Part shown: piece by piece, positions 9,219 to 42,344 of the stretch | Position numbering within the stretch: position 1 is the stretch's first letter | Layout: every line of letters begins with the position of its first letter | Assembly (NCBI GenBank): GCA_964016885.1 | Contig: OZ024748.1 | Span: 22,258,001-22,322,000 of the forward strand | Origin: Eledone cirrhosa | Taxonomy: Eukaryota | DNA length: 64,000 nt | Direction: 5' to 3' | The notes under the pieces: generated by a model | Told to the model about the DNA's origin: nothing | What the model saw: only the letters and a program-made list of their open reading frames with translations | Database searches by the model: none | Position numbers and translations under genes: made by a program

Positions 9219-9458
9219 ATTATTATTATTATTATTATTATTATTGAATGCCATGGTTGACGGAGGCTCGGCTCTGTAAGGTATAGTAATTTTTAACCGT
9301 TAAAACAATTGTAAATTGTTTAAAACTTGAACCAAATTGTTGATAAAGACACCCTCCTCCTCGTGAGAGGGGTCTTTCTGTCCGTTATTTGGCCCTTCGG
9401 GGTTAAATAGCCAGTTATTGGGGTTTTGTACCCAAAATTTCATTTTAAACAAAAAAAC

Positions 9459-11559
9459 ATGGCTACCAAAAAAAAAAAAATTTCATACGTCACTCCCACT
9501 CATTCCGTCTTCTTCTTCCTCAATCATCACTACAGGAGAGAGAAGATTGTCTCTCTCCCTCCCTTCTTTAAATGTGTCTCTCTCCCTACCTTCTCTTTCG
9601 CAAGCGACGAAAGAAAAGAAAAGTCTCGTGCAAAGCGTGCAAGGTTTCTCCACGACGACGACGACAGCGACGAAACAGGTGTGCGGGAAATACGAAAACC
9701 CAGTTCATTCGTCTGACGTCAGGAATAATAGCAGTAGCAGCCGTAATAACAACAGCAACAGTGACAATGAAAACAACAGTAGCAGCCGCAACAGCATCAC
9801 CAGCAGCATAAACAACAACACCATTAGCAGCAGCAACACCAACAACAACCACAGCAACAGCGGCGGAGGCAGTAGTCGTAGTACCTGCAGCAACAACAAA
9901 AGTACCAGCAGCTCTGACGACAACAACAACAGCAGAGAAAAACCAATCTCATTTGCAGGTATTGCGAAAAACCTGGAAACAATCCTCATAACAAATGAGG
10001 AATTAGAGGAAGCGAAGAAGATGGTGACAAAGAACGGACACCGAGCAATCTGCAAGGCAGCGAAAAATTTTTTCGAAACCCAAGAGCACTGTACGGTCAC
10101 GTACCGTACAGTAAGTACAAAATCCCGTAGGGTGGAAAGAGCCACAGAGGCCCAAATACAAAAAGCCTTGGGGTCTGTGTGGCAGAGGAAAACGCACATC
10201 ACCCGAGGCAAAAAATACGCCACCGTAGACGTACTTTTTGCCACACCCCAGGAGGCAAAGGCCCAATCAGTAGTGACCCTAAGGAGCGAGGAAATGGTGT
10301 TGGTGCCCTCCTACTGCGGGCAAAAAATTGTGAGGGTCAAACTGACCCACGTCCCCCCCGGAATGACCCCTTCTTGGCTGGCCGCGTCTGTCCTCGTCGG
10401 AATCGAGGACAAAACAACTGTACTGCAAGTACAGAAAAAAGTAAGAGAAGATTGGGTCGGCTCCTCCATTGAGATGCTAATACAAACCAACCAGGAGTGC
10501 ATCGAAGCTATCCCGGATGTGATAGACTTCGATAACGGCACTCAACTGCCCATAAGTGTTGAGGGCAAACGCCCGAAATGCTTTCGCTGTGGATCGAAGA
10601 CTCACCTCAGGGCCTTCTGCAACGAGAAGACCCTGAGAAAGGAGAAAACCCCCCTCCTCCCGAATCCGGTTCCACGGCTACCAGCAACAGGACAAGCGGC
10701 AACCAGGAACGATAGGTCCGTGGCACCCATACCCACTCCACGGAAATCAAAGACAGCAGCAGCAGTGGAAATATTAACAACAACAACAGCAATACCAAAT
10801 GCAGCTGCAACAGAGACTCCAGTGCAAACATCACCAACAACAACAAGTGAAAGAGTGGAGCTGGTACCCCTCCCCGACCTTACAGAATCAGACATGGAGT
10901 GTGAGGTGGGAGAGGGATGGCAAAAGGTCTCAAGAAGGCACAAACGCAGAAGCAGCGCATCGTCGCCTTTGAAAAGGGAGGAAAGAAATGAGAAAAGGGT
11001 AAAGTCTACTGCAAAGAGACCCACAGCAGCAACACCACCAACACCATCACCACCCACACCAGCACCACCATCACCACCGGCGACAACCCCACCGCCAACA
11101 ACACCTTCAACACCACCACCACAAGCACCAACATCGCAAACACAACAACAAAACACACACACCCAGCAACAACGACAAGAAAATAGCAGAACCACACCCC
11201 ACCCCCAGAAAAACAAATGCACGGCAATAAACACACACAACAAGAAACTAATGACTTACATAATTGAACACACAGACATTTCACAACAGGACTACATAAT
11301 ACCAGCACCAATCAAAACGCCAACTAACATAAGACTGCTAAAAATAGCACAGAAACAATACACAAACATTAAAACGAAATTCCCCAACGCAGTTGGTGAT
11401 TTCAGGGACCTAGGAGGAACCATTAATCGAAGAGTATATTCAGACATTCTCTTAGAAGAGCCGACGACCAGCCGAAGGGACGATTCAACGGTCCCTTCAC
11501 CAGACGATCAAGTGAAAAGGGATGTAAAAACCATCCCTCCTCTACCAAAAATACGGTAA
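9459..11559 (+). CDS. ORF1 gag-like nucleic-acid-binding protein (copy 1; ATG 9459 is out of frame because of an A13 run)
   Basis: CCHC knuckle CFRCGSKTHLRAFC, basic WQKVSRRHKRR motif; the track start at 9418 is TTG; the in-frame ATG is seen in copy 2. Confidence 0.8.
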
Positions 11560-11594
11560 GTGGTCTTTCCCATCTTTTCCACTCTATTTTAAAC

Positions 11595-14500
11595 ATGACC
11601 TCACTCAGAATAGGCAGCATAAATGCGCGTGGCTTGGGGTCGTCATGGAAGCAGGGTCACCTGCTCAACGACCTCAGGTCACTAAACATAGATGTAGTGG
11701 CCATCAGCGAGACCAGAATCTCCGAAGCACGGGCCTTCGCACCGATCTTCGGCGGCTACGATGTGTACGCATCTCCCAGCCGTCCTGGATCGGGTGGAGG
11801 AGTTGCTGTGCTTTTTCGGAGAGGTTTGGATCTCGCCATACGGGCCATCTTCCTGGACCCAGAGGGTAAGCTGGTGGTGCTGGACGTGACCAGCGGAGAC
11901 GGGCAAGCTTTCAGGCTAGTGGCCGTCTATGCCCCGACAGGAGCAGGGCGGCCTGATTTCTTCCGGCGTCTGGAGACCTTTCTTGGAACGTCGCGCTCTT
12001 TAGTGTTAGTGGGCGACTGGAACGGGATCTTAGATGCACGCTGGGACTGTGTGGGATTAGCGGATAGGGGTGGAGGGTGCAAGAGCCTCACCAACCTGCT
12101 CAGGCGTTTTGAACTGTCTGACAGGTACCGATTGGATTTCCCGAATGTGCCAATGTGGACTTGGACAAACCGCATAGGGTCATCCAGATCATATCTAGAT
12201 AGAGTATTTTGTAGGGAAATAGATAGGTCTAGCATAGGCTGTCCACAATTCAAGATAGTCAGCTACACGGACCACAAATTCGTGATCTGTGTGCTTGACT
12301 TAGATAGGCTTCATAGACGAGGACCCGGCTACTGGAAGCTAAACGCGTCCTTACCAGCGCGCAAGGCCTACAGAGACCGGATTAGCGAACTAGTTAAGCG
12401 GGCGTTGACGGGGGCCATCGTCAACAACAAGTGGTGGTTTGCTCTGAAAAGAGCGATTAGAATAGAATCGATTAGGTTTAGTAAGGCTTTAGCAATAGAG
12501 AAAAATAGAGCAGAGGGAGAACTAGTTAGAAAATTAGACGAGGCGCTTAGCAAAGGCATTGCGACCGACGTGCTTGCGGCGAAATTGGCCCTTGACCAAT
12601 TCTTCAATGCAAAGCACGAAGGCTGCGTTGTCAGAGCTAGGGTGCGTGCTCTCAGACACGAGGGGACGAAAGCCGTTCAATGGGCCCGAGTGGCGGAGGC
12701 GCGTCGTGGCAACAAAGCCACGATCCGGTCTTTGGTGGACCACGACGGGCGCATGCTACTCGATCCCGGGCAAATGTGTGAAGCTTTTCAGCGACACTTC
12801 GCTCAGCTGTTCGGGGGCAGCGGGGGGCCGGGTAGAGGGATGGACTTTAGTGTCTACCTCGACGGACTGCCGCGGCTCTCGGCCACTGAGGCGAAGTGTT
12901 GCGAAAAGCCGATAACAGCCGCTGAAGTAAGGGAGGCAATGACTGGCTGCACAAGGGGTAAATCGCCTGGTTTGGATGGTCTGCCCTATGAACTTTACGT
13001 ACAGATGCCAGACTTGTTCGGAGGCCTCTTGGCGGACGTCTACTGCAACTGGCAACAGAACGGGAGAATTCCCAGTTCTGTGAGCCGAGGAGCGGTGGCA
13101 CTGCTGAGAAAGGATCCGAACAAGGGGGATAACATAGACAATTTCCGGCCCATAACTCTGCTAAACACAGAGTTTAAGATTTTGGCCAAGGTGCTAGCAA
13201 AGAGGTTGGCGCTTGTCGTTGGTGGTCTGGTGGGAGAGGCGCAGACATGCGCCATTCCCGACAGATCCATCCACGACAACCTCCACCTCATGCGATACAT
13301 CGTAGAGAGGGTAGCTAGGGAACCTGGCACGGGTGGGTCCTTGATCAATTTAGATCAGTCGAAAGCTTTCGATAGGGTCGACCATCGTTACCTAGCGGCA
13401 GTCCTGAGGGCGGCTGGCTTTGGGCCCGTCTTCAGAGGCTGGATCGCTGCCATGCACAGCGACATCTGCTCTGTGGTGAGAGTGAACGGTCACCTGTCGG
13501 AACCGTTCAACATCATGCGCTCGGTCCGCCAAGGATGTCCCCTCTCGTCCCTCTTGTACGTATTGACTCTCGAGCCATTACTGCACAAACTGGAGACGTT
13601 GAGGGGAGTCCCGCGCGAACTAGGATGCGGAAGATCCGTGTCAGCATATGCGGACGATGTCACCGTAGTGGTGTCGAACGCCAAACACATCGAGGCGATC
13701 GGCACTACACTAAGAGAATACGAAGCGGTGACAGGAGCAATGATCAACCAGGAAAAGTCAGTGGGCCTGCAGCTCGGCACCTGGAGAGGCAGGTCCATGC
13801 CGTCCAACAGCGTCGTCGGGCGCTGGACGGACGGACCGGTTAAATTGCTAGGGGTCTGGTTCGGTCCGGACCTCCAGACGGACAAAAACTGGGACGAGGT
13901 GACGAGCAGGGTGGCTTCTCTCACCCAGAAATGGGCGGAGAGGAAGCTATCCCTGAAAGGTCGAGCGGAGGTGGCTAACGCGTACATCGCGTCTGTCATC
14001 TGCTACCGCCTAACCGTCGTACCTTGTCCTAAGCCTCGCCTGACTGCGCTGGAGCGTTTGCTCTTTCGCTTTTTGTGGAAGGGACGTGCTCCGATGGTCA
14101 GGCGGTCCATCTGTTGTCAACACCCGCTACGTGGAGGGCTGGGCATGCCGTGGCTGATGATGCGCAGGCACGCGCTCAGGCTACGACATCTCCACCTCTT
14201 CCTCGACGGTGATCAGGTGTGGTCGCCGTTTGCTAGACGCGTTTTTCCCCAGCTCGTTTCCTTGACGGAGCTGCAGTCCTGGGTCAAGCGAAGACCGAGA
14301 GGGAGCGCCTGGAGACTGGAATGTCTTCAGGCGCTCACAGCCCTCGACCAATCGGGCAATGTGATCGGTGGAAACTCCACCTCGGCGTTCTATAGAGGAT
14401 TAGTGGAGGGGAAGAGCGACGACGTACTTGGGGAAACTCTAGGCGTCGACGAAAATCAACTAGCCAATCTCTTCGGAAGAACCTTCGGGCCAGGGCCTAT

Positions 14501-15014
14501 GGACAACTTCCAGAAATCTCTGGCCTGGCAGTGCTACCGAGGAGCCTTGCCAGTTCGGGATAAACTCTACAGGCATGGAGGTGCCGTCAGCCGGGCATGT
14601 CCGAGATGCGCGCAGGGCGACGAAACCGTCCTGCACGCACTCGTCCAGTGTCCGAAAATTGCTGACTTGTGGGTTTATGTCGAACACCTGCTGTCGCGTT
14701 TAGGACGGATCCAGCTATCATCTGAGTCTATCGTGAGGATTGCCCCGCCCTCCTCCTTTAGCCGGGAAGGGCAGGCAGTTTTTATCTGTCTGGTGGCCAT
14801 GGCGAAAGAGATAGTATGGTGGACACGTTTGAAAGGGCTGAAGACGAGCACTTACCTCTTCGGTGATGCTCTGATTGACTTTTTCAAATTTCATTTGAAA
14901 AGGAAAATCAGAGTAGAGAAGGAAGTGCTCTCTTCCCAGCATTTTGTTGAAAGATGGGTGAGAGAAGCAAGAATGGCCCGAGTGAATGGGCCGACTCTGA
15001 GTATATATCTGTAA
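11595..15014 (+). CDS. ORF2: APE endonuclease - reverse transcriptase - C-terminal Zn finger, 1139 aa, intact
   Basis: APE: INARGL, SET, VYAP, GDWN, LDR, TDH; RT: KSPGLDGL, FRPITLLN, DQSKAFD, QGCPLS, YADD; CPRC..ETVLHALVQC. Confidence 0.97.
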   Translation: MTSLRIGSINARGLGSSWKQGHLLNDLRSLNIDVVAISETRISEARAFAPIFGGYDVYASPSRPGSGGGVAVLFRRGLDLAIRAIFLDPEGKLVVLDVTSGDGQAFRLVAVYAPTGAGRPDFFRRLETFLGTSRSLVLVGDWNGILDARWDCVGLADRGGGCKSLTNLLRRFELSDRYRLDFPNVPMWTWTNRIGSSRSYLDRVFCREIDRSSIGCPQFKIVSYTDHKFVICVLDLDRLHRRGPGYWKLNASLPARKAYRDRISELVKRALTGAIVNNKWWFALKRAIRIESIRFSKALAIEKNRAEGELVRKLDEALSKGIATDVLAAKLALDQFFNAKHEGCVVRARVRALRHEGTKAVQWARVAEARRGNKATIRSLVDHDGRMLLDPGQMCEAFQRHFAQLFGGSGGPGRGMDFSVYLDGLPRLSATEAKCCEKPITAAEVREAMTGCTRGKSPGLDGLPYELYVQMPDLFGGLLADVYCNWQQNGRIPSSVSRGAVALLRKDPNKGDNIDNFRPITLLNTEFKILAKVLAKRLALVVGGLVGEAQTCAIPDRSIHDNLHLMRYIVERVAREPGTGGSLINLDQSKAFDRVDHRYLAAVLRAAGFGPVFRGWIAAMHSDICSVVRVNGHLSEPFNIMRSVRQGCPLSSLLYVLTLEPLLHKLETLRGVPRELGCGRSVSAYADDVTVVVSNAKHIEAIGTTLREYEAVTGAMINQEKSVGLQLGTWRGRSMPSNSVVGRWTDGPVKLLGVWFGPDLQTDKNWDEVTSRVASLTQKWAERKLSLKGRAEVANAYIASVICYRLTVVPCPKPRLTALERLLFRFLWKGRAPMVRRSICCQHPLRGGLGMPWLMMRRHALRLRHLHLFLDGDQVWSPFARRVFPQLVSLTELQSWVKRRPRGSAWRLECLQALTALDQSGNVIGGNSTSAFYRGLVEGKSDDVLGETLGVDENQLANLFGRTFGPGPMDNFQKSLAWQCYRGALPVRDKLYRHGGAVSRACPRCAQGDETVLHALVQCPKIADLWVYVEHLLSRLGRIQLSSESIVRIAPPSSFSREGQAVFICLVAMAKEIVWWTRLKGLKTSTYLFGDALIDFFKFHLKRKIRVEKEVLSSQHFVERWVREARMARVNGPTLSIYL

Positions 15015-15274
15015 ACTAAAGGTGGAAAACTGGGAGAGGGCACTTGCCTTGGTGGTCAGGGTCATTGTGGCTTTTTACTGGGCTTTCTCCACAAATGTCC
15101 CTCCGAAGTCTCCCCCCTATTGGGGAATTTTTCATTGTTATTTTCATTGTTATTTTTGTTACATCCTCTATTTTTGTTTTTTTACACGCAGAAATGCCCA
15201 TTTGTACCGTCCTGCATTGTCCTGCACTGTCCTTAATGTCTACTTTATGTAAACCCTTGTGGTTAATAAAGAAA

Positions 15275-15358
<84 letters not shown>

Positions 15359-18285: not shown

Positions 18286-18732
<447 letters not shown>

Positions 18733-18885: not shown

Positions 18886-18889
18886 TCAT

Positions 18890-19291
18890 AAATATGACCA
18901 AAAGTTAAACAAGGTTCATTGATTAATCAATGAATATAGTTTTACAATAGATTAGAAGCACTCAACAGTAAAAAGTTTTCTGGAGTTATTAATATTAATT
19001 CAAAATATTAATAAATGTAGACATTCACGTAATCAAAATATATTTTATTATATATATTTCGGAGGTACTGCGCTGTATTTTCAGTACGTCCTCATCAGAT
19101 AAAATACATAAATTGATGTATGACATACCTCAACTGTGCTGATGGTTCAATTTCAGTCTTGGCAGACTGCCAAAACTGGAATTGCTCTGATGAGGACGTA
19201 CTGAAAAAACAGCACAGTACCTCCGAAATATATATAATAAAATATATTTTGATTACGTGAATGTCTCCATTTATTAATATTTTGAATTAAT
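18890..19291 (-). mobile_element. Fold-back mini-element with hammerhead (family B)
   Basis: Inverted arms ~18994-19099 / 19188-19291, ~88 bp spacer, ~100 bp tail containing ttgagtgct on the - strand. Confidence 0.75.
19041..19106 (-). ncRNA. Type I minimal hammerhead ribozyme motif
   Basis: - strand: tattttat-CTGATGA-ggacgtactg(aaaatacagcg)cagtacctcc-GAAA-tatata-TA-ataaaata; perfect 8-bp stem I, 9/10 stem II, palindromic stem III. Confidence 0.85.
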
Positions 19292-19480
19292 GCGGTGGAT
19301 TGGCAGTATCAGTAGAGAGTCGGACGCCATGCTTTCCAGCATAGTTACGTCACTTTACGGTCTGAGTTCAAATCCCGCCGAGGTTAACTTTACCTTTCAT
19401 CCTTACGGGGTCGATAAAATAAAGTACCAGTAATGTACTGGGTAATTGCTGGCCTTGTGCCAAAAGTAGAAACAATTATA
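19292..19480 (+). mobile_element. SINE family A
   Basis: Full A/B boxes and body. Confidence 0.85.
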
Positions 19481-19916
19481 TTCATAAATATATATATACG
19501 AATACCATAAAGCATTCTATCCGACGTTCGTCGCCTTCTATACAGAATAATTCGCTCTAAATAACTTATGCAGAATAACTCACAACATTAATGACTATAG
19601 AATAACTCCTCATGAATAACACATAAACCATCATTTTATTTTGATTCAATAGATTGTAGATCAATGCACTTGGTAAGAGACAATATATGAGAGGATTGCT
19701 TTTATATCGTTATTTGCTTCTAGTTCATCGTTAAGCCAGAATCAAATATATTTTATTAACAGACGTACCGCCATTTTTAAACATAGACGATCTAGAATTA
19801 TATTATCTAATGTCATTAATTTTGTAAAGATGGAATGGTTTAATTGGAATGAGATGAGATTTTGGTGCTATCTATAAGATGACGTTGGGTCAAATAAAAG
19901 ATTGTATGGTTGTAGA

Positions 19917-19979
<63 letters not shown>

Positions 19980-19980
<1 letters not shown>

Positions 19981-20169
19981 GTTATTCCGGGTTGAATCGG
20001 AGGTAACCACAGTAAGTAAGGTACTCAATACATAGCAGAGTATAAAAGTTTTAATATAGATGAGATTCTACAGGACTAGAACTGTTTCATTCTTTAGAAA
20101 TCATCAGGAATCTCCTGATGATTTCTAAAGAATGAAACAGTTCTAGTCCTGTAGAATCTCATCTATATT

Positions 20170-20173
<4 letters not shown>
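19980..20173 (-). mobile_element. Fold-back mini-element (family C) in (TA)n
   Basis: Perfect 61-bp arms 20049-20109 / 20113-20173; CTGATGA-tttctaaagaat-GAAA-cagt-TC core; tail with gtactcaata at 20021. Confidence 0.75.
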
Positions 20174-20261
<88 letters not shown>

Positions 20262-20794
20262 GATAGATAGATAAAGAGAGATAGGGAGTGAGGGAGGGGA
20301 GAGAGAGCGAGATAGATCGATAGATAGAGAGTGAGAGAGGGGGGAGAGAGAAAGATAGATAGATAGAGAGAGAGATAGGGAGTGAAAAAGGGAGAGAGAG
20401 AGTAGAATATATGTCCTATCAGAATTACTAGAGAGGGATCAACGACAAGTGTTGTGCTGTCTCCTCTATTAAACCACTTTATCCAAACGTTGATAGAAAG
20501 GTCAACGTTGAAGTTGACAGGAATCAAACAAAGATATATCTTTCCACTGTTAAGACCTACTATAGGTGTTCAGTGAGTGATGTAAGGGACAATTGATTAG
20601 GTCTTTGAGTTGGATAAAGAAGGATGTTTCAACTACACATGAGTCAAAGGTTAAATTTGTTCCGACATCTGTGAATAGTTTTCATTACACAAAATTGCAG
20701 CCTGTTATATTCATGTCTTGCTAAAGGTATTCATCTTTTTACTCCAAACCATCTGAAACAGTTTGTTTTAATGTGTTTATATTTATCTAAAATC

Positions 20795-21265
20795 CTTCTT
20801 CTTCTTCGCCCACTTATTCCTGAGAGGATCGTGGGAGTAGAGTCCTCAAATAATCCTTCCAGCTGGTCTTATCAGAAGCAACCGTCTCTAACTGATCCGG
20901 CTGGATTACCAAGCGTGACCAGCCAAGCTCATTGATGTTATCCAACCATCTTGCTCGGGGTCTGCATCTGAGTCTCTTGACGGTTGGTTTTGCCCGTAAA
21001 ATCTGTCCAACGATTTTTTCCTGAGACATTCTAACCACGCGCCCATAATGTCAGAACTATGATCTCTCATTTCGGAGAGGCGATTCTACCTTAAGTGACT
21101 CTCTGTTCTCCGAGCTACGCATTTTATCGAGTACCGTTACTCCAAATACCCTTCGGATGAATCCCATTTCGGTCACTACCCAAGATTCATAACCATAGGT
21201 AAGGTTTGGCACGAAAACCAAATTGAAGATAGCGAGTTTGGTTTTTACGTCTACCTCCCTTCTTC
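20795..21265 (-). mobile_element. RTE-clade LINE 3' fragment, degenerate
   Basis: VRMSQEKIVGQIL..KR.R.RPRARWLDNI..W C-terminal motif; (GAA)n tail. Confidence 0.75.
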
Positions 21266-21863
21266 TAGAACCCTTTCGTCATAATTTTATGTAAGAACCT
21301 TTAAGTATTTTATCTTCCAAACGCCAGCTTAATAATGAGAAAGTTAGTTAGTTAAATTACTAAATCTTTCCAAATTATTGATTATTTTCAAAATTATTTA
21401 AAAATTATAAGCAGGGTCTTTCATTAGAAAGTAGTAACGAAAGAGTTAACACAAATATATGAATTAGAAACAGGAACCCGAAACCAGATAGAACCAGGCC
21501 TAGTTGTATTAGTTATACACTGAATATTATGGTAATAGTCTTTTGTTCTTCTATTTGCCTGTCATCCTTTCAAGATCGATAAATAAAGTACCGTTCCAGT
21601 ACTGGAGCCAAACTTCTCTTTCCGTCCCCTCTCTCTCTATCTCATATATATATATATATTCTTTTACCTGTTTCAGCCATCCGGCTGAGGCCATGCTGGG
21701 GCACCGCCTACTAGAAAATATGAAATTCTCTGCATCGTGAATGTATTATGTAGGTATCGGGCCAAGTAGATTTCGATTCTTAGTTAGGTTCCCTAAACTT
21801 CATGTACATTGATAATGACTACCATCCCTATAAATGTGAAGCTTAATAGGAAAGAAAGTGGGA

Positions 21864-24800
21864 GAACAACAGCAACTCCAACAACGACAACAACAACTCC
21901 AACAACAACAATACCAACAACAGCACCAACACTACCACTACCACCAACACCACCACCACCACCACCACCACCACCAACAACAACAACTCCAACAACAACA
22001 ATACCAACAACAGCACCAACACTACCACTACCACCAACACCACCACCAACACCACCACCACCACCAACACCACCACCACCACCAACAACAACAACTCCAA
22101 CAACAACAATACCAACAACAGCACCAACACTACCACTACCACTACCACCAACACCACCACCAACACCACCACCACCAACAACAACTCCAACAACAACAAC
22201 AACTCCAACAACAACAATACCAACAACAGCACCAACACTACCACTACCACCACCACCAACACCACCACCACCAACAACACCACCACCAACAACAACACCA
22301 CCAACAACAGCACCAACACTACCACTACCACCACCACCAACAACACCACCACCACCACCACCAACAACACCACCACCAACAACAACACCACCAACAACAA
22401 CAACTCCAACAACAACAACAGCACCAACACCACCAACAACACCACCACCACCAACAACAACAACAACTCCAACACCACCAACAACAACAACAACTCCAAC
22501 AACAACAATACCAACAACAGCACCAACATTACCACTACCACCACCACCACCACCACCACCAACACCACCACCAACAACACCACCACCAACAACACCACCA
22601 CCACCACCACCACCAACAACACCAACAACACCACCACCAACACCACCACCACCACCACCAACAACAACTCCAACAACAACAACAACTCCAACAACAACAA
22701 TACCAACAACAGCACCAACACTACCACTACCACCACCACCACCACCACCACCACCACCACCAACAACAACACCAACAACACCACCACCACCACCACCACC
22801 ACCAACACCACCAACAACACCACCACCACCAACAACACCACCACCACCACCACCACCAACAACACCACCAACACCACCACCAACACCACCACCACCACCA
22901 CCAACAACAACTCCAACAACAACAACACCACCAACAACAACAACTCCAACAACAACAACAGCACCAACACCACCAACAACACCACCACCACCAACACCAC
23001 CACCACCAACAACAACAACTCCAACAACAACAATACCACCAACACCACCACCACCAACAACAACAACTCCAACAACAACAATACCACCAACACCACCACC
23101 ACCACCAACAACACCAACAACACCACCACCAACAACACCACCACCAACAACAACAACAACTCCAACAACAACAATACCAACAACAGCACCAACACTACCA
23201 CTACCACCACCACCACCACCACCAACACCACCACCACCACCAACAACACCAACAACACCACCACCAACAACACCACCACCACCAACAACAACAACTCCAA
23301 CAACAACAATACCACCAACACCACCACCACCACCAACAACACCAACAACACCACCACCAACAACACCACCACCACTAACAACAGCAACTCCAACAACAAC
23401 AATACCAACAACAGCACCAACACTACCACTACCACCACCACCACCACCACCACCAACAACACCACCACCACCACCAACAACACCAACAACACCACCACCA
23501 ACAACACCACCACCACCAACAACAACAACTCCAACAACAACAATACCAACAACAGCACCAACACTACCACTACCACCACCAACACCACCAACAACACCAC
23601 CACCACCAACAACAACAACTCCAACAACAACAATACCAACAACAGCACCAACACTACCACTACCACCACCACCACTACCACCACCAACACCACCACCACC
23701 ACCACCACCACCAACAACACCACCACCACCACCAACAACACCAACAACACCACCACCACCAACACCAACACCACCAACAACACCACCACCACCAACAACA
23801 ACAATACCAACAACAGCACCAACACTACCACTACCACCACCACCACTACCACCACCACCACCACCACCAACAACAACAACAACTCCAACAACAACAATAC
23901 CAACACCACCACCAACACTACCACTACCACCACCACCACTACCACCACCAACACCACCACCACCACCAACAACAACAACAACTCCAACAACAACAATACC
24001 AACACCACCACCAACACTACCACTACCACCAACACCACCAACAACACCACCACCAACACCACCAACAACTCCAACAACAACAATACCAACAACAGCACCA
24101 ACACTACCACTACCACTACCACCAACACCACCAACAACACCACCACCAACACCACCAACAACTCCAACAACAACAATACCAACAACAGCACCAACACTAC
24201 CACTACCACTACCACCAACACCACCACCAACAACACCACCACCACCAACAACAACAACTCCAACAACAACAATACCAACAACAGCACCAACACTACCACT
24301 ACCACCACCACCAACACCACCAACAACACCACCACCAACACCACCACCACTCCAACAACAACAATACCAACAACAGCACCAACACTACCACTACCACCAC
24401 CAACACCACCACCAACAACACCACCACCACCAACAACAACAACTCCAACAACAACAATACCACCAACAACACCACCACCACCAACACCAACACCACCAAC
24501 AACACCACCACCACCAACAACAACAGCAACTCCAACAACAACAATACCAACAACAGCACCAACACTACCACTACCACCACCACCACCACCACCACCAACA
24601 CCACCACCACTCCAACAACAACAATACCAACAGCAGCACCAACACTACCACTACCACCACCACCAACACCACCAACAACACCACCACCACCAACACCACC
24701 AACAACTCCAACAACAACAATACCAACAACAGCACCAACACTACCACTATCACCACCAACACCACCACCAACAACACCACCACCACCAACAACAACAACT

Positions 24801-24960
24801 CCAACAACAACAATACCAACAACAGCACCAACACTACCACTACCACCACCACCAACACCACCACCAACACCACCACCACCAACACCACCAACAACACCAC
24901 CACCACCAACACCACCACCACTCCAACAACAACAATACCAACAGCAGCACCAACAACAGC
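21864..24960. repeat. (CCA/CAA)n complex satellite with a higher-order unit
   Basis: Recurring actccaacaacaacaataccaacaacagcaccaacactaccactacca; open in several frames on both strands. Confidence 0.9.
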
Positions 24961-25432
24961 GACAGCGACAGAAAGCTAATAGCGAGGATAATTGAAAATG
25001 GTGGTCTGTTTTATATAGGAAAACGAAAAGTAGCGTTACATACAATATTTGTATGAGTTTTAGTTTGTATATCAACCAGCTCAGTATCGTACACCATCCC
25101 ACCCACACTAAATAAAAGCCATCTCAACCTTCGCTATCATCTATACAACTACATTGGGATGATATGGCGCGCGTCTTGAAACTTTACATGTTATCAATGT
25201 CAACGTCTCAATATTATTCTCTCGCTAAAGACGGTCAAATGCTAAAGGTAAGTATGTCGCTGTCTCTTTGTGCGACAATTTCCTCACCTAGCCTCTATTG
25301 TCACCATATCCCCACCCTGTTCCTCACCAGCCACTCTCTTTTATCCAAACATCACCTGTAAAAGAATAGGATGATGAATTTTGTTTGAACGTTGACCGAT
25401 ATTTGGCATTGTCAGCTTCAAATGGGTTGACA

Positions 25433-26295
25433 TTGTTGTTGTTGTTGTTGTTGTTGTTGTCGTTATTGCTGCTGTTGTTGTTGTTGTTGTTGTTGATGTT
25501 ACTATTGTTATGGTTATTGTTATTGTTGTTGCTGTTGTTATCGTTGTTATTGTTGTCATTGTTGCTATTACTGTCGTTGTTATTGTTACTGTTGTCATTG
25601 TTGTTACTTTTGTTGTTGTCATTGTTGTTATTGTTGTTACTGTTGTTACTGTTAATACTGTTGCTGTTGTTATTGTTGTTATTGTTGTTATTGTTGTTAC
25701 TGTTGTTACTGTTAATACTGTTGCTGTTGTTATTGTTGTTATTGTTGTTATTGTTGTTACTGTTGTTACTGTTAATACTGTTGCTGTTGTTATTGTTGTT
25801 ATTGTTGTTACTGTTGTTACTGTTGTTACTGTTATTGTTGTTATTGTTGTTATTGTTGTTATTGTTGTTATTGTTGTTATTGTTGTTATTATTGTTACTG
25901 TTGTTATTGTTGTTACTGTTGTTATTGTTGTTACTGTTGTTACTCTTGTTATTGTTGTTACTGTTGTTATTGTTGTTATTGTTGTTATTATTGTTACTGT
26001 TGTTATTGTTGTTATTGTTGCTGTTGTTATTGTTATTGTTGTTATTGTTGTTATTGTTGTTACTGTTGTTATTGTTGTTATTGTTGTTACTGTTGTTATT
26101 GTTGTTATTGTTGTTACTGTTGTTATTGTTGTTATTGTTGTTACTGTTGTTATTGTTGTTATTGTTGATGTTGTTACTATTGTTACAGTTTCTGTTGCTA
26201 TTGTTATTCCAGTTACTGTTGTTATTGTTGTTATACTTGTTAATATTTGCTATTGTTGTTGCTATTGTTATTGATGTTGATATTTGTTATTGTTA
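25433..26295. repeat. (GTT/ATT/ACT)n complex microsatellite
   Basis: Directly visible. Confidence 0.9.
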
Positions 26296-26296
26296 T

Positions 26297-26530
26297 GGCG
26301 GTGAATTGGCTGAATTGGTAGAGCGTCAGATACAATGCTATCGTGGTATTTGCTGTAACTCTTTACATTCTGAGTTCAAATCCGGCCAAAGTTAAATATG
26401 TCTTTCATACTTCCAGGGTCGATAAATAAAGTAGCAGTGATTGATTGATTTAATCAACTGGGATTGATTTAATCAACTTAACCTTCCTACTAATTTGCTG
26501 GCCCTGTACCTAAATTATAAATCAATATTT
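26297..26530 (+). mobile_element. SINE family A, diverged
   Basis: ggcggtgaattggctgaattggtagagcg...gagttcaaatcc...gggtcgataaataaagta. Confidence 0.7.
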
Positions 26531-26557
26531 ATTGTTGTTACCTGTTTAGACACAGAG

Positions 26558-26619
<62 letters not shown>

Positions 26620-26623
<4 letters not shown>

Positions 26624-27165
26624 TATTAAAAAAATAATGAATAAACAAAGAAACAGTTCCTTATATTAAACAAAAAAAGTTCATTATTTTACGATCGTTT
26701 CTAGGACATATATGTGTTAGAATTGGTATGCATATTCAAAAGATCTATGTACAAAATTATACAAACTATCAGAGGGAATATACATACCTTCACATATATA
26801 TGCTGTCTTCAGAAATAATTATTTCTGAAATAATTATTTCTGAAGACAGCATATATATGTGAAGGTATGTATATTCCCTCTGATAGTTTGTATAATTTTG
26901 TACATAGATCTTTTGAATATGCATACCAATTCTAACACATATATGTCCTAGAAACGATCGTAAAATAATGAACTTTTTTTGTTTAATATAAGGAACTGTT
27001 TCTTTGTTTATTCATTATTTTTTTAATAATTTATCTTGACTTTGTTTTCCGTTTATCTTTCACCGAAAGTGATTTTTGAATGCATCTCTTCTTTCCATGA
27101 TATCCGGATTACATTGAGTTCTTCATACGGATTGGACACTACCGTAAACTTTTGGTAGATTTATT

Positions 27166-27168
<3 letters not shown>
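26620..27168 (+). mobile_element. Fold-back mini-element (family D) in (TA)n
   Basis: ~200 bp perfect arms 26620-26820 / 26833-27032, ~135 bp tail containing ttgagttct; pure (TA)n on both sides. Confidence 0.8.
26833..26969 (+). ncRNA. Hammerhead ribozyme motif with 104-nt extended stem II
   Basis: attattt-CTGAAGA-[104 nt including ggtatgtatattc/gaatatgcatacc]-GAAA-cgatcg-TA-aaataat; perfect 7-bp stem I. Confidence 0.65.
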
Positions 27169-27233
<65 letters not shown>

Positions 27234-27238
<5 letters not shown>

Positions 27239-27492
27239 CTCTGTGTCTAAACAGATGTTCTTTTGATCAATTACATTTTATTATACATATTTCGGATGTA
27301 CAACAGTACGTCCTCATCAGACAAAATATAATGATACATGACATACCCTGAGATGTTAAATGGTTAAGATTTAATCAAGGTAGTCAACTATTTTAATATT
27401 AATAACTCAAAAAAATTATTCCCGTTGAGTGCTTCCAATCTACTGTAAAACTCATTCTTTGACATAATCATTGAATATTGTTTAACAATTCA
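27234..27492. mobile_element. Family B mini-element, second copy (inverted hammerhead segment joined to tail)
   Basis: Homologous to 18900-19160; tail on + strand, hammerhead on - strand. Confidence 0.7.
27275..27327 (-). ncRNA. Type I minimal hammerhead ribozyme motif
   Basis: - strand: attttgt-CTGATGA-ggacgtac(tgtt)gtacatcc-GAAA-tatgta-TA-ataaaat. Confidence 0.8.
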
Positions 27493-27678
27493 ATATATAT
27501 ATACTGTATATATATGTATGTATATATATATGTATATATGTATGTATATATATGTATAGATATATGTATATATATATGTATATATATATGTATATACATA
27601 TATGTATATATATATGTATATATATATATGTATATACATATATGTATATATATATATGTATATATATATGTATATACA

Positions 27679-27737
<59 letters not shown>

Positions 27738-27959
27738 CGTTTCTGAATTTGTTTAGCAAGATTCTTTATCTGAAATCGTGTGTTGAAACCGATATTGTTA
27801 TACTTTGGGAGGGTCATGTTGCCAATAAGAAACACACGCACCAGTTGCTTTCACTTCAATTTATTATATATTTATAAATTTATAAATTTACAAATCTACA
27901 AACCTATAAATTTCTGGTTGGTTGGTTGGTTCCACAACCAGATAGTTGTTTATATATAT

Positions 27960-28004
27960 AGTCATAGTCCTTTCGTCACACACTCTGTGACCTCTTCAGT
28001 GACT
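27960..28004 (-). ncRNA. Minimal hammerhead ribozyme motif in PLE 3' UTR
   Basis: agtca-CTGAAGA-g-gtcaca(gagtg)tgtgac-GAAA-ggac-TA-tgact. Confidence 0.8.
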
Positions 28005-28290
28005 GGGGATTCCTTTCTTCTCTTCGTTTCTGTGCCTTTTCTTTCTTCTATCCTACGCCATTTTGTTTCTGTGTGTGTGTTGTGTGCTCAGTTTGCGCAT
28101 GTGCCACATCCGGGTGTCTGTGTGTGTTTGTGTTCATTTTTCTATTTGTTTATTTATTTATTTATTGTTGGTTGGTTGTTTGTTCTATGTGTGTGTGTGT
28201 TTTCATTTTGTCCTGCGTGTGTTTTCATTTTGTGTGTGTTTTCAATTGTAAGTTGTTTGTTCTATGTGTGTGTGTGTTTTTATTTTGTCC

Positions 28291-29200
28291 TTAATTGTAA
28301 GTTGTGATGTTGCTGTTCCACTCATATTTTCTATTTAATTTTGGTTTTAATTCTTTTATGCTTACTGCCTCTGTAATTTGCCTAAACATTGCGTCTTTTC
28401 TGTGCGTGGATTCTATTTTTATTTCTATGCTCTCTAATCTACCCCTGTGTTCTATCTTAGCATGTTGGTAGAGCACAGATGATTCTTTATTATCTTGGAG
28501 GTCTCGCCAGTGTTCATTTATTCGTTCCCCTATACTACGAGCTGTCTCACCTATGTACACTATATTTTTTTTACATTGTCCTTCAGTACATCTTATGCTA
28601 TACACTACATTTCTAGTTTTACAGTTAATATGGGGGCTTATTTTACAGGTTATACATTTCTTATCTATACATGGGGGTCCTTGGAACGGGTATGTCTTGC
28701 TAATAAGTGTTTTTACGGAGGTACCAGGTCTTTCTACTATCTTAATATTGAGATTATGTTTATTTAGGGCCCTTCTAAATTTGTAGGCTAGTTCGCCTCT
28801 AGGGGTTGTATTGACGAACATTACACTCTGGTATTTATTGCTATCATACCATGAGTTTATTCTATTGGCCTTGTTCCTAGTTCTTTCTATTCTATTCCAA
28901 AATTTGCTCCTATACAAGGGGCAGGTCCCATTTATGTCATTATTTACCATTTTTTCCCATTTGGTTCTGGCTCCTTTATACACTCTGATTCTATCTCTCT
29001 GATTGTAGCCAGAGAACTGCATACGGTGGATGAAATGTTGTATGTGTCTCTCTAGTTCTTCGGGGTTGCACATGCGGGACACATTTCTCATCACCCGTAC
29101 CAAATCCGCAATCAGTATGTTGATTTTGGTATGGTCCGAAATGGCCGAGTTTCGGTGGATCAGATGTTTGGAAGTCATGGGTTTGGCATAATAAAGACCC
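28291..29200 (-). pseudogene. PLE ORF C-terminus: RT thumb + Cys linker + GIY-YIG endonuclease (5'-truncated, no internal stop)
   Basis: YAKPMTS..IHRNSA..FIHRMQFSGY; PCIDKKCITC; NVVYSIRC..C..VYIGETARSIGERINEH..LYQH..H..RQITEA..LN; the first ~40 aa of the track ORF is antisense of the inverted arm. Confidence 0.9.
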
Positions 29201-29201
29201 T

Positions 29202-29584
29202 CATGTATAGATAAGAAATGTATAACCTGTAAAATAAGCCCCCATATTAACTGTAAAACTAGAAATGTAGTGTATAGCATAAGATGTACTGAAGGACAAT
29301 GTAAAAAAAATATAGTGTACATAGGTGAGACAGCTCGTAGTATAGGGGAACGAATAAATGAACACTGGCGAGACCTCCAAGATAATAAAGAATCATCTGT
29401 GCTCTACCAACATGCTAAGATAGAACACAGGGGTAGATTAGAGAGCATAGAAATAAAAATAGAATCCACGCACAGAAAAGACGCAATGTTTAGGCAAATT
29501 ACAGAGGCAGTAAGCATAAAAGAATTAAAACCAAAATTAAATAGAAAATATGAGTGGAACAGCAACATCACAACTTACAATTAA
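29202..29584 (+). pseudogene. Inverted duplicate of the GIY-YIG domain
   Basis: Same peptide as the 28291-28673 minus-strand segment. Confidence 0.9.
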
Positions 29585-35114: not shown

Positions 35115-35259
35115 CGTGTATTTATTTAGCTTCGATCACATGCGTATAATTGAAACTAAGACTTTGTGTTTGTCTGGTCTATTCTTGAACCCCCCCCCCC
35201 CATACATACACACACATACTTTCTCTCTCTCTTTATATATATATATATATAAATATATA

Positions 35260-35433
35260 AATTAATAAAAATAATGAATAAAAACTTTATATTAAAAAAT
35301 TCATCATTTTACGATCGTTTCTAGGATATATATGTGTGTGTTGGTATGAATATCATATAGATCTATGTAAAAATTTTACAAACTATCAGAGGGAATATAC
35401 ATACCTACACATATATATGGTGTCTTCAGAAAT
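35260..35433 (-). mobile_element. Family D single arm with long-stem-II hammerhead motif
   Basis: - strand: attt-CTGAAGA-...-ctaGAAA-cgatcg-TA-aaat; diverged homologue of 26620-26820; in (TA)n. Confidence 0.7.
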
Positions 35434-35588
35434 ATATATATATATATATATATATAGTACAAAATTATTATGTCATCACAAACGTGCAGACACGCACGCA
35501 TGCAAATGCAATCGCTCTGAATATATATATATGGGGTGTGTATGGGTGTGTGTTTGTGTGTATATGATATATATACATACACATACAT

Positions 35589-36039: not shown

Positions 36040-36490
36040 CACACACACATATATATATATACATATATATATACACACACACACATATATATATATATAC
36101 ATATATAAATGTATGTATGTATATTTATATATATTTATATAAATATGTATGTGTGGTATCTGTGTGCTTATACGTATGTACATGTGTGTGTATAGACACC
36201 GTAATGAGATTAAAATAAAAAGAAATGCTTACAGCAGTGACGTAGATGACTTTATTATTATTATTATTATTATTGAATGCCATGGTTGACGGAGGCTCGG
36301 CTCTGTAAGGTATAGTAATTTTTAACCGTTAAAACAATTGTAAATTGTTTAAAACTTGAACCTAATTGTTGATAAAGACACCCTCCTCCTCGTGAGAGGG
36401 GTCTTTCTGCCCGTTATTTGGCCCTTCGGGGTTAAATAACCAGTTATTGGGGTTTTGTACCCAAAATTTCATTTTAAACAAAAAAACAAC

Positions 36491-38584
36491 ATGGCTACGA
36501 AAAAGAAATTTCATACGTCACTCCCACTCATTCCGTCTTCTTCCTCAATCATCACTACAGCAGAGAGAAGATTGTCTCTCTCCCTCCCTTCTTTAAATGT
36601 GTCTCTCTCCCTCCCTTCTCTTTCGCAAGCAACGAAAGAAAAGAAAAGTCTCGTGCAAAGCGTGCAAGGTTTCTCCACGACGACGACGACAGCGACGAAA
36701 CAGGTGTGCGGGAAATACGAAAACCCAGTTCATTCGTCTGACGTCAGGAATAATAGCAGTAGCAGCCGTAATAACAACAGCAACAGTGACAATGAAAACA
36801 ACAGTAGCAGCCGCAACAGCATCACCAGCAACATAAACAACAACAGCATTAGCAGCAGCAACACCAACAACAACCACAGCAACAGCGGCGGAGGCAGTAG
36901 TCGTAGTACCTGCAGCAACAACAAAAGTACCAGCAGCTCTGACGACAACAACAACAGCAGAGAAAAACCAATCTCATTTGCAGGTATTGCGAAAAACTTG
37001 GAAACAATCCTCATAACAAATGAGGAATTAGAGGAAGCGAAGAAGATGGTGACAAAGAACGGACACCGAGCAATCTGCAAGGCAGCGAAAAATTTTTTCG
37101 AAACCCAAGAGCACTGTACGGTCACGTACCGTACAGTAAGTACAAAATCCCGTAGGGTGGAAAGAGCCACAGAGGCCCAAATACAAAAAGCCTTGGGGTC
37201 TGTGTGGCAGAGGAAAACGCACATCACCCGAGGCAAAAAATACGCCACCGTAGACGTACTTTTTGCCACACCCCAGGAGGCAAAGGCCCAATCAGTAGTG
37301 ACCCTAAGGAGCGAGGAAATGGTGTTGGTGCCCTCCTACTGCGGGCAAAAAATTGTGAGGGTCAAACTGACCCACGTCCCCCCCGGAATGACCCCTTCTT
37401 GGCTGGCCGCGTCTGTCCTCGTCGGAATCGAGGACAAAACAACTGTACTGCAAGTACAGAAAAAAGTAAGAGAAGATTGGGTCGGCTCCTCCATTGAGAT
37501 GCTAATCCAAACCAACCAGGAGTGCATCGAAGCTATCCCGGATGTGATAGACTTCGATAACGGCACTCAACTGCCCATAAGTGTTGAGGGCAAACGCCCG
37601 AAATGCTTTCGCTGTGGATCGAAGACTCACCTCAGGGCCTTCTGCAACGAGAAGACCCTGAGAAAGGAGAAAACCCCCCTCCTCCCGAATCCGGTTCCAC
37701 GGCTACCAGCAACAGGACAAGCGGCAACCAGGAACGATAGGTCCGTGGCACCCATACCCACTCCACGGAAATCAAAGACAGCAGCAGCAGTGGAAATATT
37801 AACAACAACAACAGCAATACCAAATGCAGCTGCAACAGAGACTCCAGTGCAAACATCACCAACAACAACAAGTGAAAGAGTGGAGCTGGTACCCCTCCCC
37901 GACCTTACAGAATCAGACATGGAGTGTGAGGTGGGAGAGGGATGGCAAAAGGTCTCAAGAAGGCACAAACGCAGAAGCAGCGCATCGTCGCCTTTGAAAA
38001 GGGAGGAAAGAAATGAGAAAAGGGTAAAGTCTACTGCAAAGAGACCCACAGCAGCAACACCACCAACACCATCACCACCCACACCAGCACCACCATCACC
38101 ACCGGCGACAACCCCACCGCCAACAACACCTTCAACACCACCACCACAAGCACCAACATCGCAAACACAACAACAAAACACACACACCCAGCAACAACGA
38201 CAAGAAAATAGCAGAACCACACCCCACCCCCAGAAAAACAAATGCACGGCAATAAACACACACAACAAGAAACTAATGACTTACATAATTGAACACACAG
38301 ACATTTCACAACAGGACTACATAATACCAGCACCAATCAAAACGCCAACTAACATAAGACTGCTAAAAATAGCACAGAAACAATACACAAACATTAAAAC
38401 GAAATTCCCCAACGCAGTTGGTGATTTCAGGGACCTAGGAGGAACCATTAATCGAAGAGTATATTCAGACATTCTCTTAGAAGAGCCGACGACCAGCCGA
38501 AGGGACGATTCAACGGTCCCTTCACCAGACGATCAAGTGAAAAGGGATGTAAAAACCATCCCTCCTCTACCAAAAATACGGTAA
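36491..38584 (+). CDS. ORF1 gag-like protein with CCHC zinc knuckle
   Basis: In-frame ATG (acaacATGG) giving MATKKKFHTSL...; CFRCGSKTHLRAFC. Confidence 0.9.
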   Translation: MATKKKFHTSLPLIPSSSSIITTAERRLSLSLPSLNVSLSLPSLSQATKEKKSLVQSVQGFSTTTTTATKQVCGKYENPVHSSDVRNNSSSSRNNNSNSDNENNSSSRNSITSNINNNSISSSNTNNNHSNSGGGSSRSTCSNNKSTSSSDDNNNSREKPISFAGIAKNLETILITNEELEEAKKMVTKNGHRAICKAAKNFFETQEHCTVTYRTVSTKSRRVERATEAQIQKALGSVWQRKTHITRGKKYATVDVLFATPQEAKAQSVVTLRSEEMVLVPSYCGQKIVRVKLTHVPPGMTPSWLAASVLVGIEDKTTVLQVQKKVREDWVGSSIEMLIQTNQECIEAIPDVIDFDNGTQLPISVEGKRPKCFRCGSKTHLRAFCNEKTLRKEKTPLLPNPVPRLPATGQAATRNDRSVAPIPTPRKSKTAAAVEILTTTTAIPNAAATETPVQTSPTTTSERVELVPLPDLTESDMECEVGEGWQKVSRRHKRRSSASSPLKREERNEKRVKSTAKRPTAATPPTPSPPTPAPPSPPATTPPPTTPSTPPPQAPTSQTQQQNTHTQQQRQENSRTTPHPQKNKCTAINTHNKKLMTYIIEHTDISQQDYIIPAPIKTPTNIRLLKIAQKQYTNIKTKFPNAVGDFRDLGGTINRRVYSDILLEEPTTSRRDDSTVPSPDDQVKRDVKTIPPLPKIR

Positions 38585-38619
38585 GTGGTCTTTCCCATCT
38601 TTTCCACTCTATTTTAAAC

Positions 38620-41600: not shown

Positions 41601-42039
41601 TGGAGGTGCCGTCAGCCGGGCATGTCCGAGATGCGCGCAGGGCGACGAAACCGTCCTGCACGCACTCGTCCAGTGTCCGAAAATTGCTGACTTGTGGGTT
41701 TATGTCGAACACCTGCTGTCGCGTTTAGGACGGATCCAGCTATCATCTGAGTCTATCGTGAGGATTGCCCCGCCCTCCTCCTTTAGCCGGGAAGGGCAGG
41801 CAGTTTTTATCTGTCTGGTGGCCATGGCGAAAGAGATAGTATGGTGGACACGTTTGAAAGGGCTGAAGACGAGCACTTACCTCTTCGGTGATGCTCTGAT
41901 TGACTTTTTCAAATTTCATTTGAAAAGGAAAATCAGAGTAGAGAAGGAAGTGCTCTCTTCCCAGCATTTTGTTGAAAGATGGGTGAGAGAAGCAAGAATG
42001 GCCCGAGTGAATGGGCCGACTCTGAGTATATATCTGTAA
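38620..42039 (+). CDS. ORF2: APE endonuclease - reverse transcriptase - Zn finger, 1139 aa
   Basis: Same motifs as copy 1; three amino-acid differences seen (K/R, L/Q, T/M). Confidence 0.97.
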   Translation: MTSLRIGSINARGLGSSWKQGHLLNDLRSLNIDVVAISETRISEARAFAPIFGGYDVYASPSRPGSGGGVAVLFRRGLDLAIRAIFLDPEGKLVVLDVTSGDGQAFRLVAVYAPTGAGRPDFFRRLETFLGTSRSLVLVGDWNGILDARWDCVGLADRGGGCKSLTNLLRRFELSDRYRLDFPNVPMWTWTNRIGSSRSYLDRVFCREIDRSSIGCPQFKIVSYTDHKFVICVLDLDRLHRRGPGYWKLNASLPARKAYRDRISELVKRALTGAIVNNKWWFALKRAIRIESIRFSKALAIEKNRAEGELVRKLDEALSKGIATDVLAAKLALDQFFNAKHEGCVVRARVRALRHEGTKAVQWARVAEARRGNKATIRSLVDHDGRMLLDPGQMCEAFQRHFAQLFGGSGGPGRGMDFSVYLDGLPRLSATEARCCEKPITAAEVREAMTGCTRGKSPGLDGLPYELYVQMPDLFGGLLADVYCNWQQNGRIPSSVSRGAVALLRKDPNKGDNIDNFRPITLLNTEFKILAKVLAKRLALVVGGLVGEAQTCAIPDRSIHDNLHLMRYIVERVAREPGTGGSLINLDQSKAFDRVDHRYLAAVLRAAGFGPVFRGWIAAMHSDICSVVRVNGHLSEPFNIMRSVRQGCPLSSLLYVLTLEPLLHKLETLRGVPRELGCGRSVSAYADDVTVVVSNAKHIEAIGTTLREYEAVTGAMINQEKSVGQQLGTWRGRSMPSNSVVGRWTDGPVKLLGVWFGPDLQMDKNWDEVTSRVASLTQKWAERKLSLKGRAEVANAYIASVICYRLTVVPCPKPRLTALERLLFRFLWKGRAPMVRRSICCQHPLRGGLGMPWLMMRRHALRLRHLHLFLDGDQVWSPFARRVFPQLVSLTELQSWVKRRPRGSAWRLECLQALTALDQSGNVIGGNSTSAFYRGLVEGKSDDVLGETLGVDENQLANLFGRTFGPGPMDNFQKSLAWQCYRGALPVRDKLYRHGGAVSRACPRCAQGDETVLHALVQCPKIADLWVYVEHLLSRLGRIQLSSESIVRIAPPSSFSREGQAVFICLVAMAKEIVWWTRLKGLKTSTYLFGDALIDFFKFHLKRKIRVEKEVLSSQHFVERWVREARMARVNGPTLSIYL

Positions 42040-42300: not shown

Positions 42301-42344
<44 letters not shown>

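What the first reader, a model, noticed from the sequence alone, without database searches (positions are those of the whole stretch)
19041..27327. Family B hammerhead conserved between two diverged copies (19041-19106 and 27275-27327)
Both keep CTGATGA, GAAA and UA. Stem I tolerates an A-U to G-U change. Stem II keeps gga-c-gtac/gtac-N-tcc while the loop differs completely (15 vs 4 nt beyond the shared stem). Flanking sequence is much more diverged. This is the best internal evidence for selection on ribozyme structure. The partial inverted copy at 19188-19240 starts 1 nt before CTGA and lacks stem I.
Basis: partly seen in the sequence, partly recalled or inferred. Interest (0 to 1): 0.7.

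Follow-up and report, generated by a model that had tools for sequence, protein, structure and literature searches.

The report
Hammerheads of two sister Penelope retrotransposons
The two motifs are hammerhead-ribozyme sequences from the end repeats of two sister Penelope-like jumping genes with thousands of copies in this genome; they are predicted to cut RNA only as pairs, these particular copies are likely inert fragments, and the arrangement is a known, ordinary one.

Summary
In detail: type I hammerhead motifs lie at 19106-19041 (-) and 27328-27274 (-), 47 of 51 non-loop bases identical against about 65% in the flanks. They are not two copies of one family. Each sits in the pseudo-LTR of a different, sister Penelope-like retrotransposon (RT plus C-terminal GIY-YIG, Hydra-clade motifs). 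The core pattern has 2,678 exact matches in the genome; fuller copies link each loop type to its own RT lineage. Both window copies are short fold-back insertions. Selection shows between families: 20 sister variants give 8 of 21 pairs with two-sided changes, a fixed mismatch in stem II and an always self-complementary stem III, which favours dimers. Inserted copies decay neutrally (core 5/280, flank 20/1116 substitutions), and the 19 kb copy would be locked in a hairpin with its inverted arm. Copies end at two fixed sites about 57 and 157 bases past the cut site, never at it; inverted pairs carry one of each. Hammerheads in Hydra-clade elements, including one octopus family, are published. 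This scan noted similar two-ended hammerhead repeats elsewhere in this genome. Cleavage was not tested. New members of a known kind.

The parts
19041..19106 (-). Type I hammerhead motif, long-loop family (B-long); predicted cut 19049/19048 after AUA
18889..19166 (-). Main arm of a truncated B-long Penelope-like insertion: end of 3' UTR, hammerhead, first end site (about 18992) and the ~100-nt tail to the second end site, then microsatellite
   Evidence: 92-96% identical to 39 other genomic places over most of its length
19167..19291 (+). Inverted arm of the same insertion; internal loss of about 47 nt removes the 5' strand of stem I; ends at the first end site
19292..19479 (+). Dispersed short repeat (SINE-like by inference) abutting the inverted arm; not part of the element
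   Evidence: many copies in the window
27274..27328 (-). Type I hammerhead motif, short-loop family (B-short); predicted cut 27282/27281
27254..27379 (-). Arm of a truncated B-short insertion that carries the hammerhead; cut short about 40 nt after GAAA by another repeat
   Evidence: near-identical to both pseudo-LTR types, L033 and L094
27388..27495 (+). Opposite arm of the B-short insertion: only the first end site and the ~100-nt tail, then (TA)n

Best explanation
Both motifs are type I hammerhead sequences in the pseudo-LTRs of two sister Penelope-like retrotransposon families with Hydra-clade motifs, predicted to cleave only as dimers or with protein help, and the window holds short fold-back insertions of each that are likely inert. 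Shown: the link of each hammerhead to an RT-GIY-YIG frame, the pseudo-LTR layout (hammerhead about 210-230 nt before the start codon and again after the 3' UTR), the inverted arms, the two fixed ends in (TA)n, covariation between families and neutral decay of copies. Inferred: the element's endonuclease nicks (TA)n on both strands, and the RT starts inside the RNA at two sites downstream of an uncut or re-joined hammerhead, one site for each strand, giving two 5'-truncated arms joined head to head. The hammerhead likely acts in the element's RNA, where the self-complementary stem III lets two hammerheads (the two pseudo-LTRs of one transcript, or two transcripts) pair and cut.
For: 2,678 exact core matches, 0 for the reversed control; 1,742 are short-loop. 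B-short with its frame: L033, L082, L086, L097; hammerhead upstream of the frame in L094 and L087. B-long with its frame: L150 (inverted arm, 5' pseudo-LTR, ATG, frame, 3' pseudo-LTR), L154, L157, L160, L164. RT tree: B-short 98/93, B-long-type 98/100, sister family C 100/99. 16 of 16 pairs closer than 4 kb among the first 100 listed matches point away from each other (counted by hand). Pair counts on 20 variants: 98.8% of cells paired, 8 of 21 pairs with two-sided changes, 43 such cells against 14 in shuffles and 1-10 in slid controls. Stem III is UAUAUA, UAUGUA or UGCGCA, all self-complementary. Active fold as a dimer -27.4 and -21.0 kcal/mol against -14.8 and -9.4 for two active monomers. 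Ends at +64-69 (24 of 40 B-short) or +170-172 (12 of 40) after GAAA, none at the cut site +8. Literature: PMC4209133, PMC8557442, PMC11167929.
Against: Cleavage was not tested. The active fold lies 3.6 and 5.6 kcal/mol above the monomer minimum, and the active dimer 1.7 and 4.0 above the best co-fold. The stem III duplex is weak (-3.2, -2.2 kcal/mol). Pfam gives the protein no RT or GIY-YIG hit and PDB sequence search none; RT identity rests on motifs and on comparison by eye with the published Hydra alignment. The 20 variants are related, so the covariation counts are not independent events, and only 21 of 500 shuffles separate the pair count from chance. No unbroken full-length B frame was seen in the 40 loci fetched for it (longest 636 aa). 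A few arms end elsewhere (about +20 in L122 and L139, +41 in the window's 27 kb arm).
Confidence: 0.85

Rival explanations
1. The hammerhead fold is kept in these elements mainly as a binding or dimerising structure for the RT-endonuclease, and cleavage is rare or absent in the transposition cycle.
For: No copy ends at the cut site. In the anole element, core mutants did not change insertion in vitro and no reads ended at the cut site (PMC11167929). Self-complementary stem III and two-armed insertions.
Against: All catalytic core positions are invariant over 20 sister variants while position 7, which is free in hammerheads, varies; that is the pattern expected from selection on catalysis. A cut and re-joined circular RNA would also leave intact junctions in the DNA.
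Confidence: 0.2
2. The motifs are units of a non-autonomous tandem retrozyme.
For: Type I topology with a palindromic stem III is shared with animal retrozymes (bioRxiv 10.64898/2026.07.22.740005, part 1). A few short same-strand repeats exist (L004; two pairs 158 and 340 nt apart in the listing).
Against: Neither window copy is in a tandem array. Close pairs are inverted (16 of 16). Longer copies run into an RT-GIY-YIG frame.
Confidence: 0.04
3. These two copies have been kept by the host as working ribozymes at these loci.
For: Both cores are intact, and the 27 kb motif has no antisense partner nearby.
Against: Intact cores are expected in young copies (17 of 23 full copies undamaged); core and flank change at the same rate (5/280 against 20/1116, p 1.0). 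A minus-strand transcript across 18985-19295 folds into a -185 kcal/mol hairpin that buries the 19 kb motif. The test covers B-short copies in bulk, not these two loci.
Confidence: 0.04

Closest known systems
Hydra-clade Penelope-like elements, e.g. Hydra-1_Obim of Octopus bimaculoides (Craig et al. 2021, PMC8557442; passages, section 11, supplement passages and part 2 of 59 read)
   Same: Single frame with RT and C-terminal GIY-YIG; DKT, RWR/RWK-type, GLYRDD and CNCR..CPL motifs; no CCHH; (TA)n targets; canonical type I hammerhead in the pseudo-LTR; inverted 5'-truncated arm; tail on one end only.
   Different: Different protein and hammerhead sequence from Hydra-1_Obim (compared by eye). Unit about 3.8-4.2 kb against generally under 3 kb. 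Tail about 100 nt against the 30-40 nt given for PLEs. Hammerhead has an 8-bp AU-rich stem I, a stem II with a fixed mismatch at position 4 and an 8-nt perfect palindrome in stem III, whereas most listed Hydra motifs have 3-4 pairs around a 1-2 nt loop.
Hammerheads of metazoan PLE pseudo-LTRs (Cervera and de la Pena 2014, PMC4209133; parts 1-2 of 4 read)
   Same: Type I topology, short palindromic helix III, dimer prediction, thousands of dispersed copies, opposite-strand pairs 100-700 bp apart.
   Different: These motifs keep a helix III strand (not the minimal form) and lack the extra base between positions 9 and 10.1; sister families close stem II with A-U as well as G-C.
Poseidon element of Anolis carolinensis (Frangieh et al. 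2024, PMC11167929; parts 1-2 of 4 read)
   Same: Two fixed ends downstream of the hammerhead that define a tail; AT-rich targets; hammerhead left intact in DNA copies.
   Different: Other clade. There the hammerhead overlaps the start codon and the two start sites lie in the frame; here hammerhead and both end sites lie in the 5' UTR, about 100 nt apart, and both end in ATAT, which matches the target.
Animal non-LTR retrozymes (Li et al. 2026 preprint, part 1 of 5 read)
   Same: Type I hammerhead related to PLE pseudo-LTRs.
   Different: No tandem array here; the motifs belong to protein-coding elements.

Membership tests
Type I hammerhead ribozyme | Core CUGANGA, GAAA, UH in order | tested here: met
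   invariant in 20 variants except position 7
Type I hammerhead ribozyme | Stems I and II with covariation | tested here: met
   stem II region 7 of 9 pairs with two-sided changes; stem I 5 of 8 pairs change on one side only, none two-sided
Type I hammerhead ribozyme | Stable stem III in a monomer | tested here: not met
   2 A-U pairs around 4 nt; active monomer 3.6-5.6 kcal/mol above the minimum; forms 8 bp only between two copies
Type I hammerhead ribozyme | Match to an Rfam hammerhead model | tested here: not met
   a library miss, not a defining failure
Type I hammerhead ribozyme | Self-cleavage 3' of H17 | not testable with these tools
   needs an in vitro assay
Penelope-like element (EN+) | One frame with RT and GIY-YIG endonuclease | tested here: met
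   motifs in L080-L083, L150, L160; 1,065 homologues, one with PF01541, named ones from molluscs; no direct Pfam hit
Penelope-like element (EN+) | Pseudo-LTRs, direct or inverted, holding the hammerhead | tested here: met
   L150, L094, L087, L033
Penelope-like element (EN+) | Tail on one end of the insertion | tested here: met
   about 100 nt
Hydra clade | DKT in place of DKG; RWK-type motif; C-terminal EN without CCHH; CxC linker; CxxC and CxH around E and N; (TA)n targets | tested here: met
   read from translations against section 11 and the supplement alignment; RWR in B, by eye
Hydra clade | Placement in the clade on an RT tree with reference families | not tested
   the reference proteins were seen only in the paper's supplement
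Hydra clade | Generally under 3 kb | tested here: not met
   hammerhead-to-hammerhead about 3.8 kb in L150, 4.0-4.2 kb in sister family C; a tendency in the paper, not a criterion
Naiad clade | N-terminal GIY-YIG, no canonical hammerhead | tested here: not met
   endonuclease is C-terminal
Non-LTR retrozyme | Head-to-tail array with a hammerhead in each unit, no protein | tested here: not met

The most novel reading that the evidence does not exclude
The palindromic stem III is an RNA dimerisation signal that delivers two templates to one DNA break: each nicked strand primes on its own template, one at the near start site and one at the far site 100 nt away, which is why the outer ends of inverted insertions were one of each in 22 of 22 loci. 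The hammerhead would then set the two-armed insertion geometry, much as a retroviral dimer signal does, besides or instead of cutting.
Probability: 0.15. Interest if true: 0.65.

Novelty: new member of a known kind. Interest (0 to 1): 0.27.

Why it matters
As a ribozyme in a Penelope-like element it is expected. Its value is as material: a young, multi-family set with natural covariation, a conserved stem II mismatch, loop II from 4 to about 16 nt, and two sharp insertion ends 100 nt apart. That makes two open points testable in a clade not yet studied at the bench in the papers read here: whether these hammerheads must cleave for transposition, and how two-armed inverted insertions arise.

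Tried and rejected
Rfam: no hammerhead match. First RT found beside a B motif (L002) belongs to sister family C, which has its own hammerhead; it was rejected as the cognate. The GIY-YIG frame at window 28294-29403 is another element with its own hammerhead-like motif and was rejected as the cognate. Naiad assignment rejected on domain order. Pfam and PDB sequence searches gave nothing useful; the Atlas look-up did not run. No RNA holder listed, so no reads were laid. A-to-G excess as a mark of RNA editing in B copies: not seen (A>G 7 against T>C 13 in 40 B-short copies, 23 against 31 in 67 B-long). One search used a reference with its own core mutation, so its damage count is void; one search replaces it. 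In one search five rows labelled Blong (L089, L090, L093, L095, L098) are the UUGAA-loop variant, mislabelled by my script, so its group table is not used, only the tree. One search timed out. Lunse et al. on dimer cleavage is not held; only its title was seen. Paper searches for hammerhead with octopus or cephalopod and Penelope and with Naiad returned no paper on these families; Repbase and subscription journals were not searchable, and 58 of 59 parts of the Craig supplement were seen only through term searches.
Full report
Observation. Both motifs are in the sequence on the minus strand, at 19106-19041 and 27328-27274, with the core, the UA triplet end and stems I and II as described. A strict type I descriptor finds these 2 sites in the window and none in 100 local shuffles. 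Outside loop II, 47 of 51 positions agree; the flanks agree at 136 of 209 columns (p 6e-5). The flanks are therefore homologous, only less conserved. The partial copy on the plus strand belongs to an arm that starts at 19167, head to head with the minus arm at 19166, has lost about 47 nt including the 5' strand of stem I, and ends at 19291. Rfam does not recognise the motifs.

What it belongs to. The core pattern has 2,678 exact matches in the 3.0-Gb genome and the reversed control none; 1,742 have the 4-nt loop. Among the first 100 listed, all 16 pairs closer than 4 kb point away from each other (hand count). One such pair, L033, encloses an RT and GIY-YIG frame. Twenty loci picked by that RT showed short-loop or UUGAA-loop hammerheads downstream of the frame, inverted upstream, or directly upstream of the start codon (L094, L087). 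The long-loop type was traced through its 3' UTR to a sister frame; L150 has an inverted arm, a 5' pseudo-LTR about 210 nt before the ATG, a frameshifted full frame 62-65% identical to B-short in its best pieces, and a 3' pseudo-LTR 3.8 kb on. On a tree of 48 RT pieces the B-short rows (98/93), the long-loop rows (98/100) and sister family C (100/99) form separate supported groups, with the UUGAA variants between them (bootstrap not fully settled).

Clade. The protein has SDKT, RRLRWRAF, GASDSAQ, GLYRDD, FLD, a CNCR..CPL...C linker, VY...YIG without the CCHH cysteines, and CxxC and CxH near the end. These match the Hydra clade as described (PMC8557442 section 11) and its alignment, compared by eye. 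That supplement lists Hydra-1_Obim from Octopus bimaculoides with another hammerhead. Homologues are many (1,065 among 7,996 scored); named ones are from Argonauta and Solemya. Pfam and PDB give no direct hit. That the host is an octopod is inference.

Where selection acts. Twenty real variants from sister families in this genome were counted against the hammerhead structure: 98.8% of cells pair; 8 of 21 pairs change on both sides (shuffles 5.5, 21 of 500 as high); 43 cells do (shuffles 14, 0 of 500; slid controls 1-10). The rows are related, so these are not independent events. Stem II keeps three pairs, then a C facing C, A or U, then more pairs. In stem I five pairs vary, all by A to G giving G-U, none by U to C, whereas rare changes in inserted copies show T>C at least as often as A>G; this fits selection on the sense RNA. 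Stem III reads UAUAUA, UAUGUA or UGCGCA, and unrelated families in the same loci use CUAG, CGCG or GUAC: always self-complementary. The active fold gains about 12 kcal/mol as a dimer, though it is not the minimum fold in either state. By contrast, 30 B-short copies chosen by a flank pattern show 5/280 core and 20/1116 flank substitutions (p 1.0); 6 of 23 full copies are damaged and 7 of 30 are cut within the motif. The 19 kb motif would be buried in a -185 kcal/mol hairpin with its inverted arm if read through.

Ends and mechanism. Copies stop in (TA)n at two sites: +64-69 after GAAA (24 of 40 B-short, 24 of 67 B-long at +59-71) or about +165-172 (12 of 40; 36 of 67, inflated because 30 loci were chosen with a tail-bearing query). 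None stops at the cut site, +8. In 22 loci with two arms the outer ends were one of each (24 of 25 pair rows; the exception is an inner repeat in L004); 13 of the 22 were not chosen by the tail. That script's pattern missed some pairs; one search shows further mixed pairs and two arms ending near +20. The 19 kb insertion fits the rule; the 27 kb one has the hammerhead on one arm and only the tail on the other. In the anole element two internal RT start sites define the tail, both target strands are extended, cleavage needs the protein and is dispensable for insertion in vitro (PMC11167929, parts 1-2). By analogy the two ends here are RT start sites, one per strand, on RNA whose hammerhead is uncut or re-joined. 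This step is inferred. Dimer action of PLE hammerheads with low activity is reported (PMC4209133; review passages PMC6765202).

Verdict. A real hammerhead motif under constraint in the transposing lineages of Hydra-type Penelope-like elements; the window copies are truncated and likely inert. The kind is known, in this clade and in octopus. The families, the 100-nt tail, the stem II mismatch and the one-of-each rule for ends were not found in the papers searched, but Repbase was not available. Earlier scan notes describe similar two-ended hammerhead repeats in this genome (unchecked, seen after my); none matched this sequence.

Noticed in passing
window 28294-29403 (-), 29195-29584 (+), 27999-27971 (-): 3' part of another Penelope-like element: GIY-YIG frame with CCHH-type residues and a CxxxxCxxC linker, inverted second arm (27567-28682 against 30279-29193, 94%), and its own hammerhead-like motif with CUGAAGA; also in L035, L037, L041, L052.
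   Followed up: partly
window 20041-20181 and 62358-62450: Fold-back repeats with a further hammerhead-like core (CUGAUGA, short stem II, GAAA); same motif in L035, L042, L071.
   Followed up: no
window 9223-15354 and 36252-42380: Two 99.3% identical copies of a 6.1-kb LINE with open ORF1 (about 720 aa) and ORF2 (1195 aa; endonuclease, RVT_1, zf-RVT); young and possibly active.
   Followed up: partly
window 26543-27254: Nested inverted repeat: outer arms 26542-26635 and 27159-27254 (96%) around a 417-bp near-perfect palindrome (26618-27034); it cuts off the 27 kb arm; partial copy at 35234-35434.
   Followed up: no
L060-L079: Sister family C: over 130 RT copies at 90-98% identity, open frames to about 800 aa, units of 4.0-4.2 kb with a related hammerhead; the youngest-looking of these families.
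   Followed up: partly
L039 6098-6180 (+), L038, L032, L079, L103: Sister hammerhead with a 16-bp stem II and the strong palindrome UGCGCA in stem III (self-duplex -10.5 kcal/mol); its frame was not traced; best candidate for a dimer assay.
   Followed up: partly
L094 about 5585 (-), L087, L150 about 4500 (-): Just after the far end site the 5' UTR has a conserved AGGT stretch that could be a splice site of a 5' UTR intron, as known for Penelope; untested.
   Followed up: no
window 21865-24958, 45064-48112, 18408-18732, 54971-55468: Long tandem arrays (AAC/ACC-rich, 22-mer, 61-mer, 39-mer).
   Followed up: no
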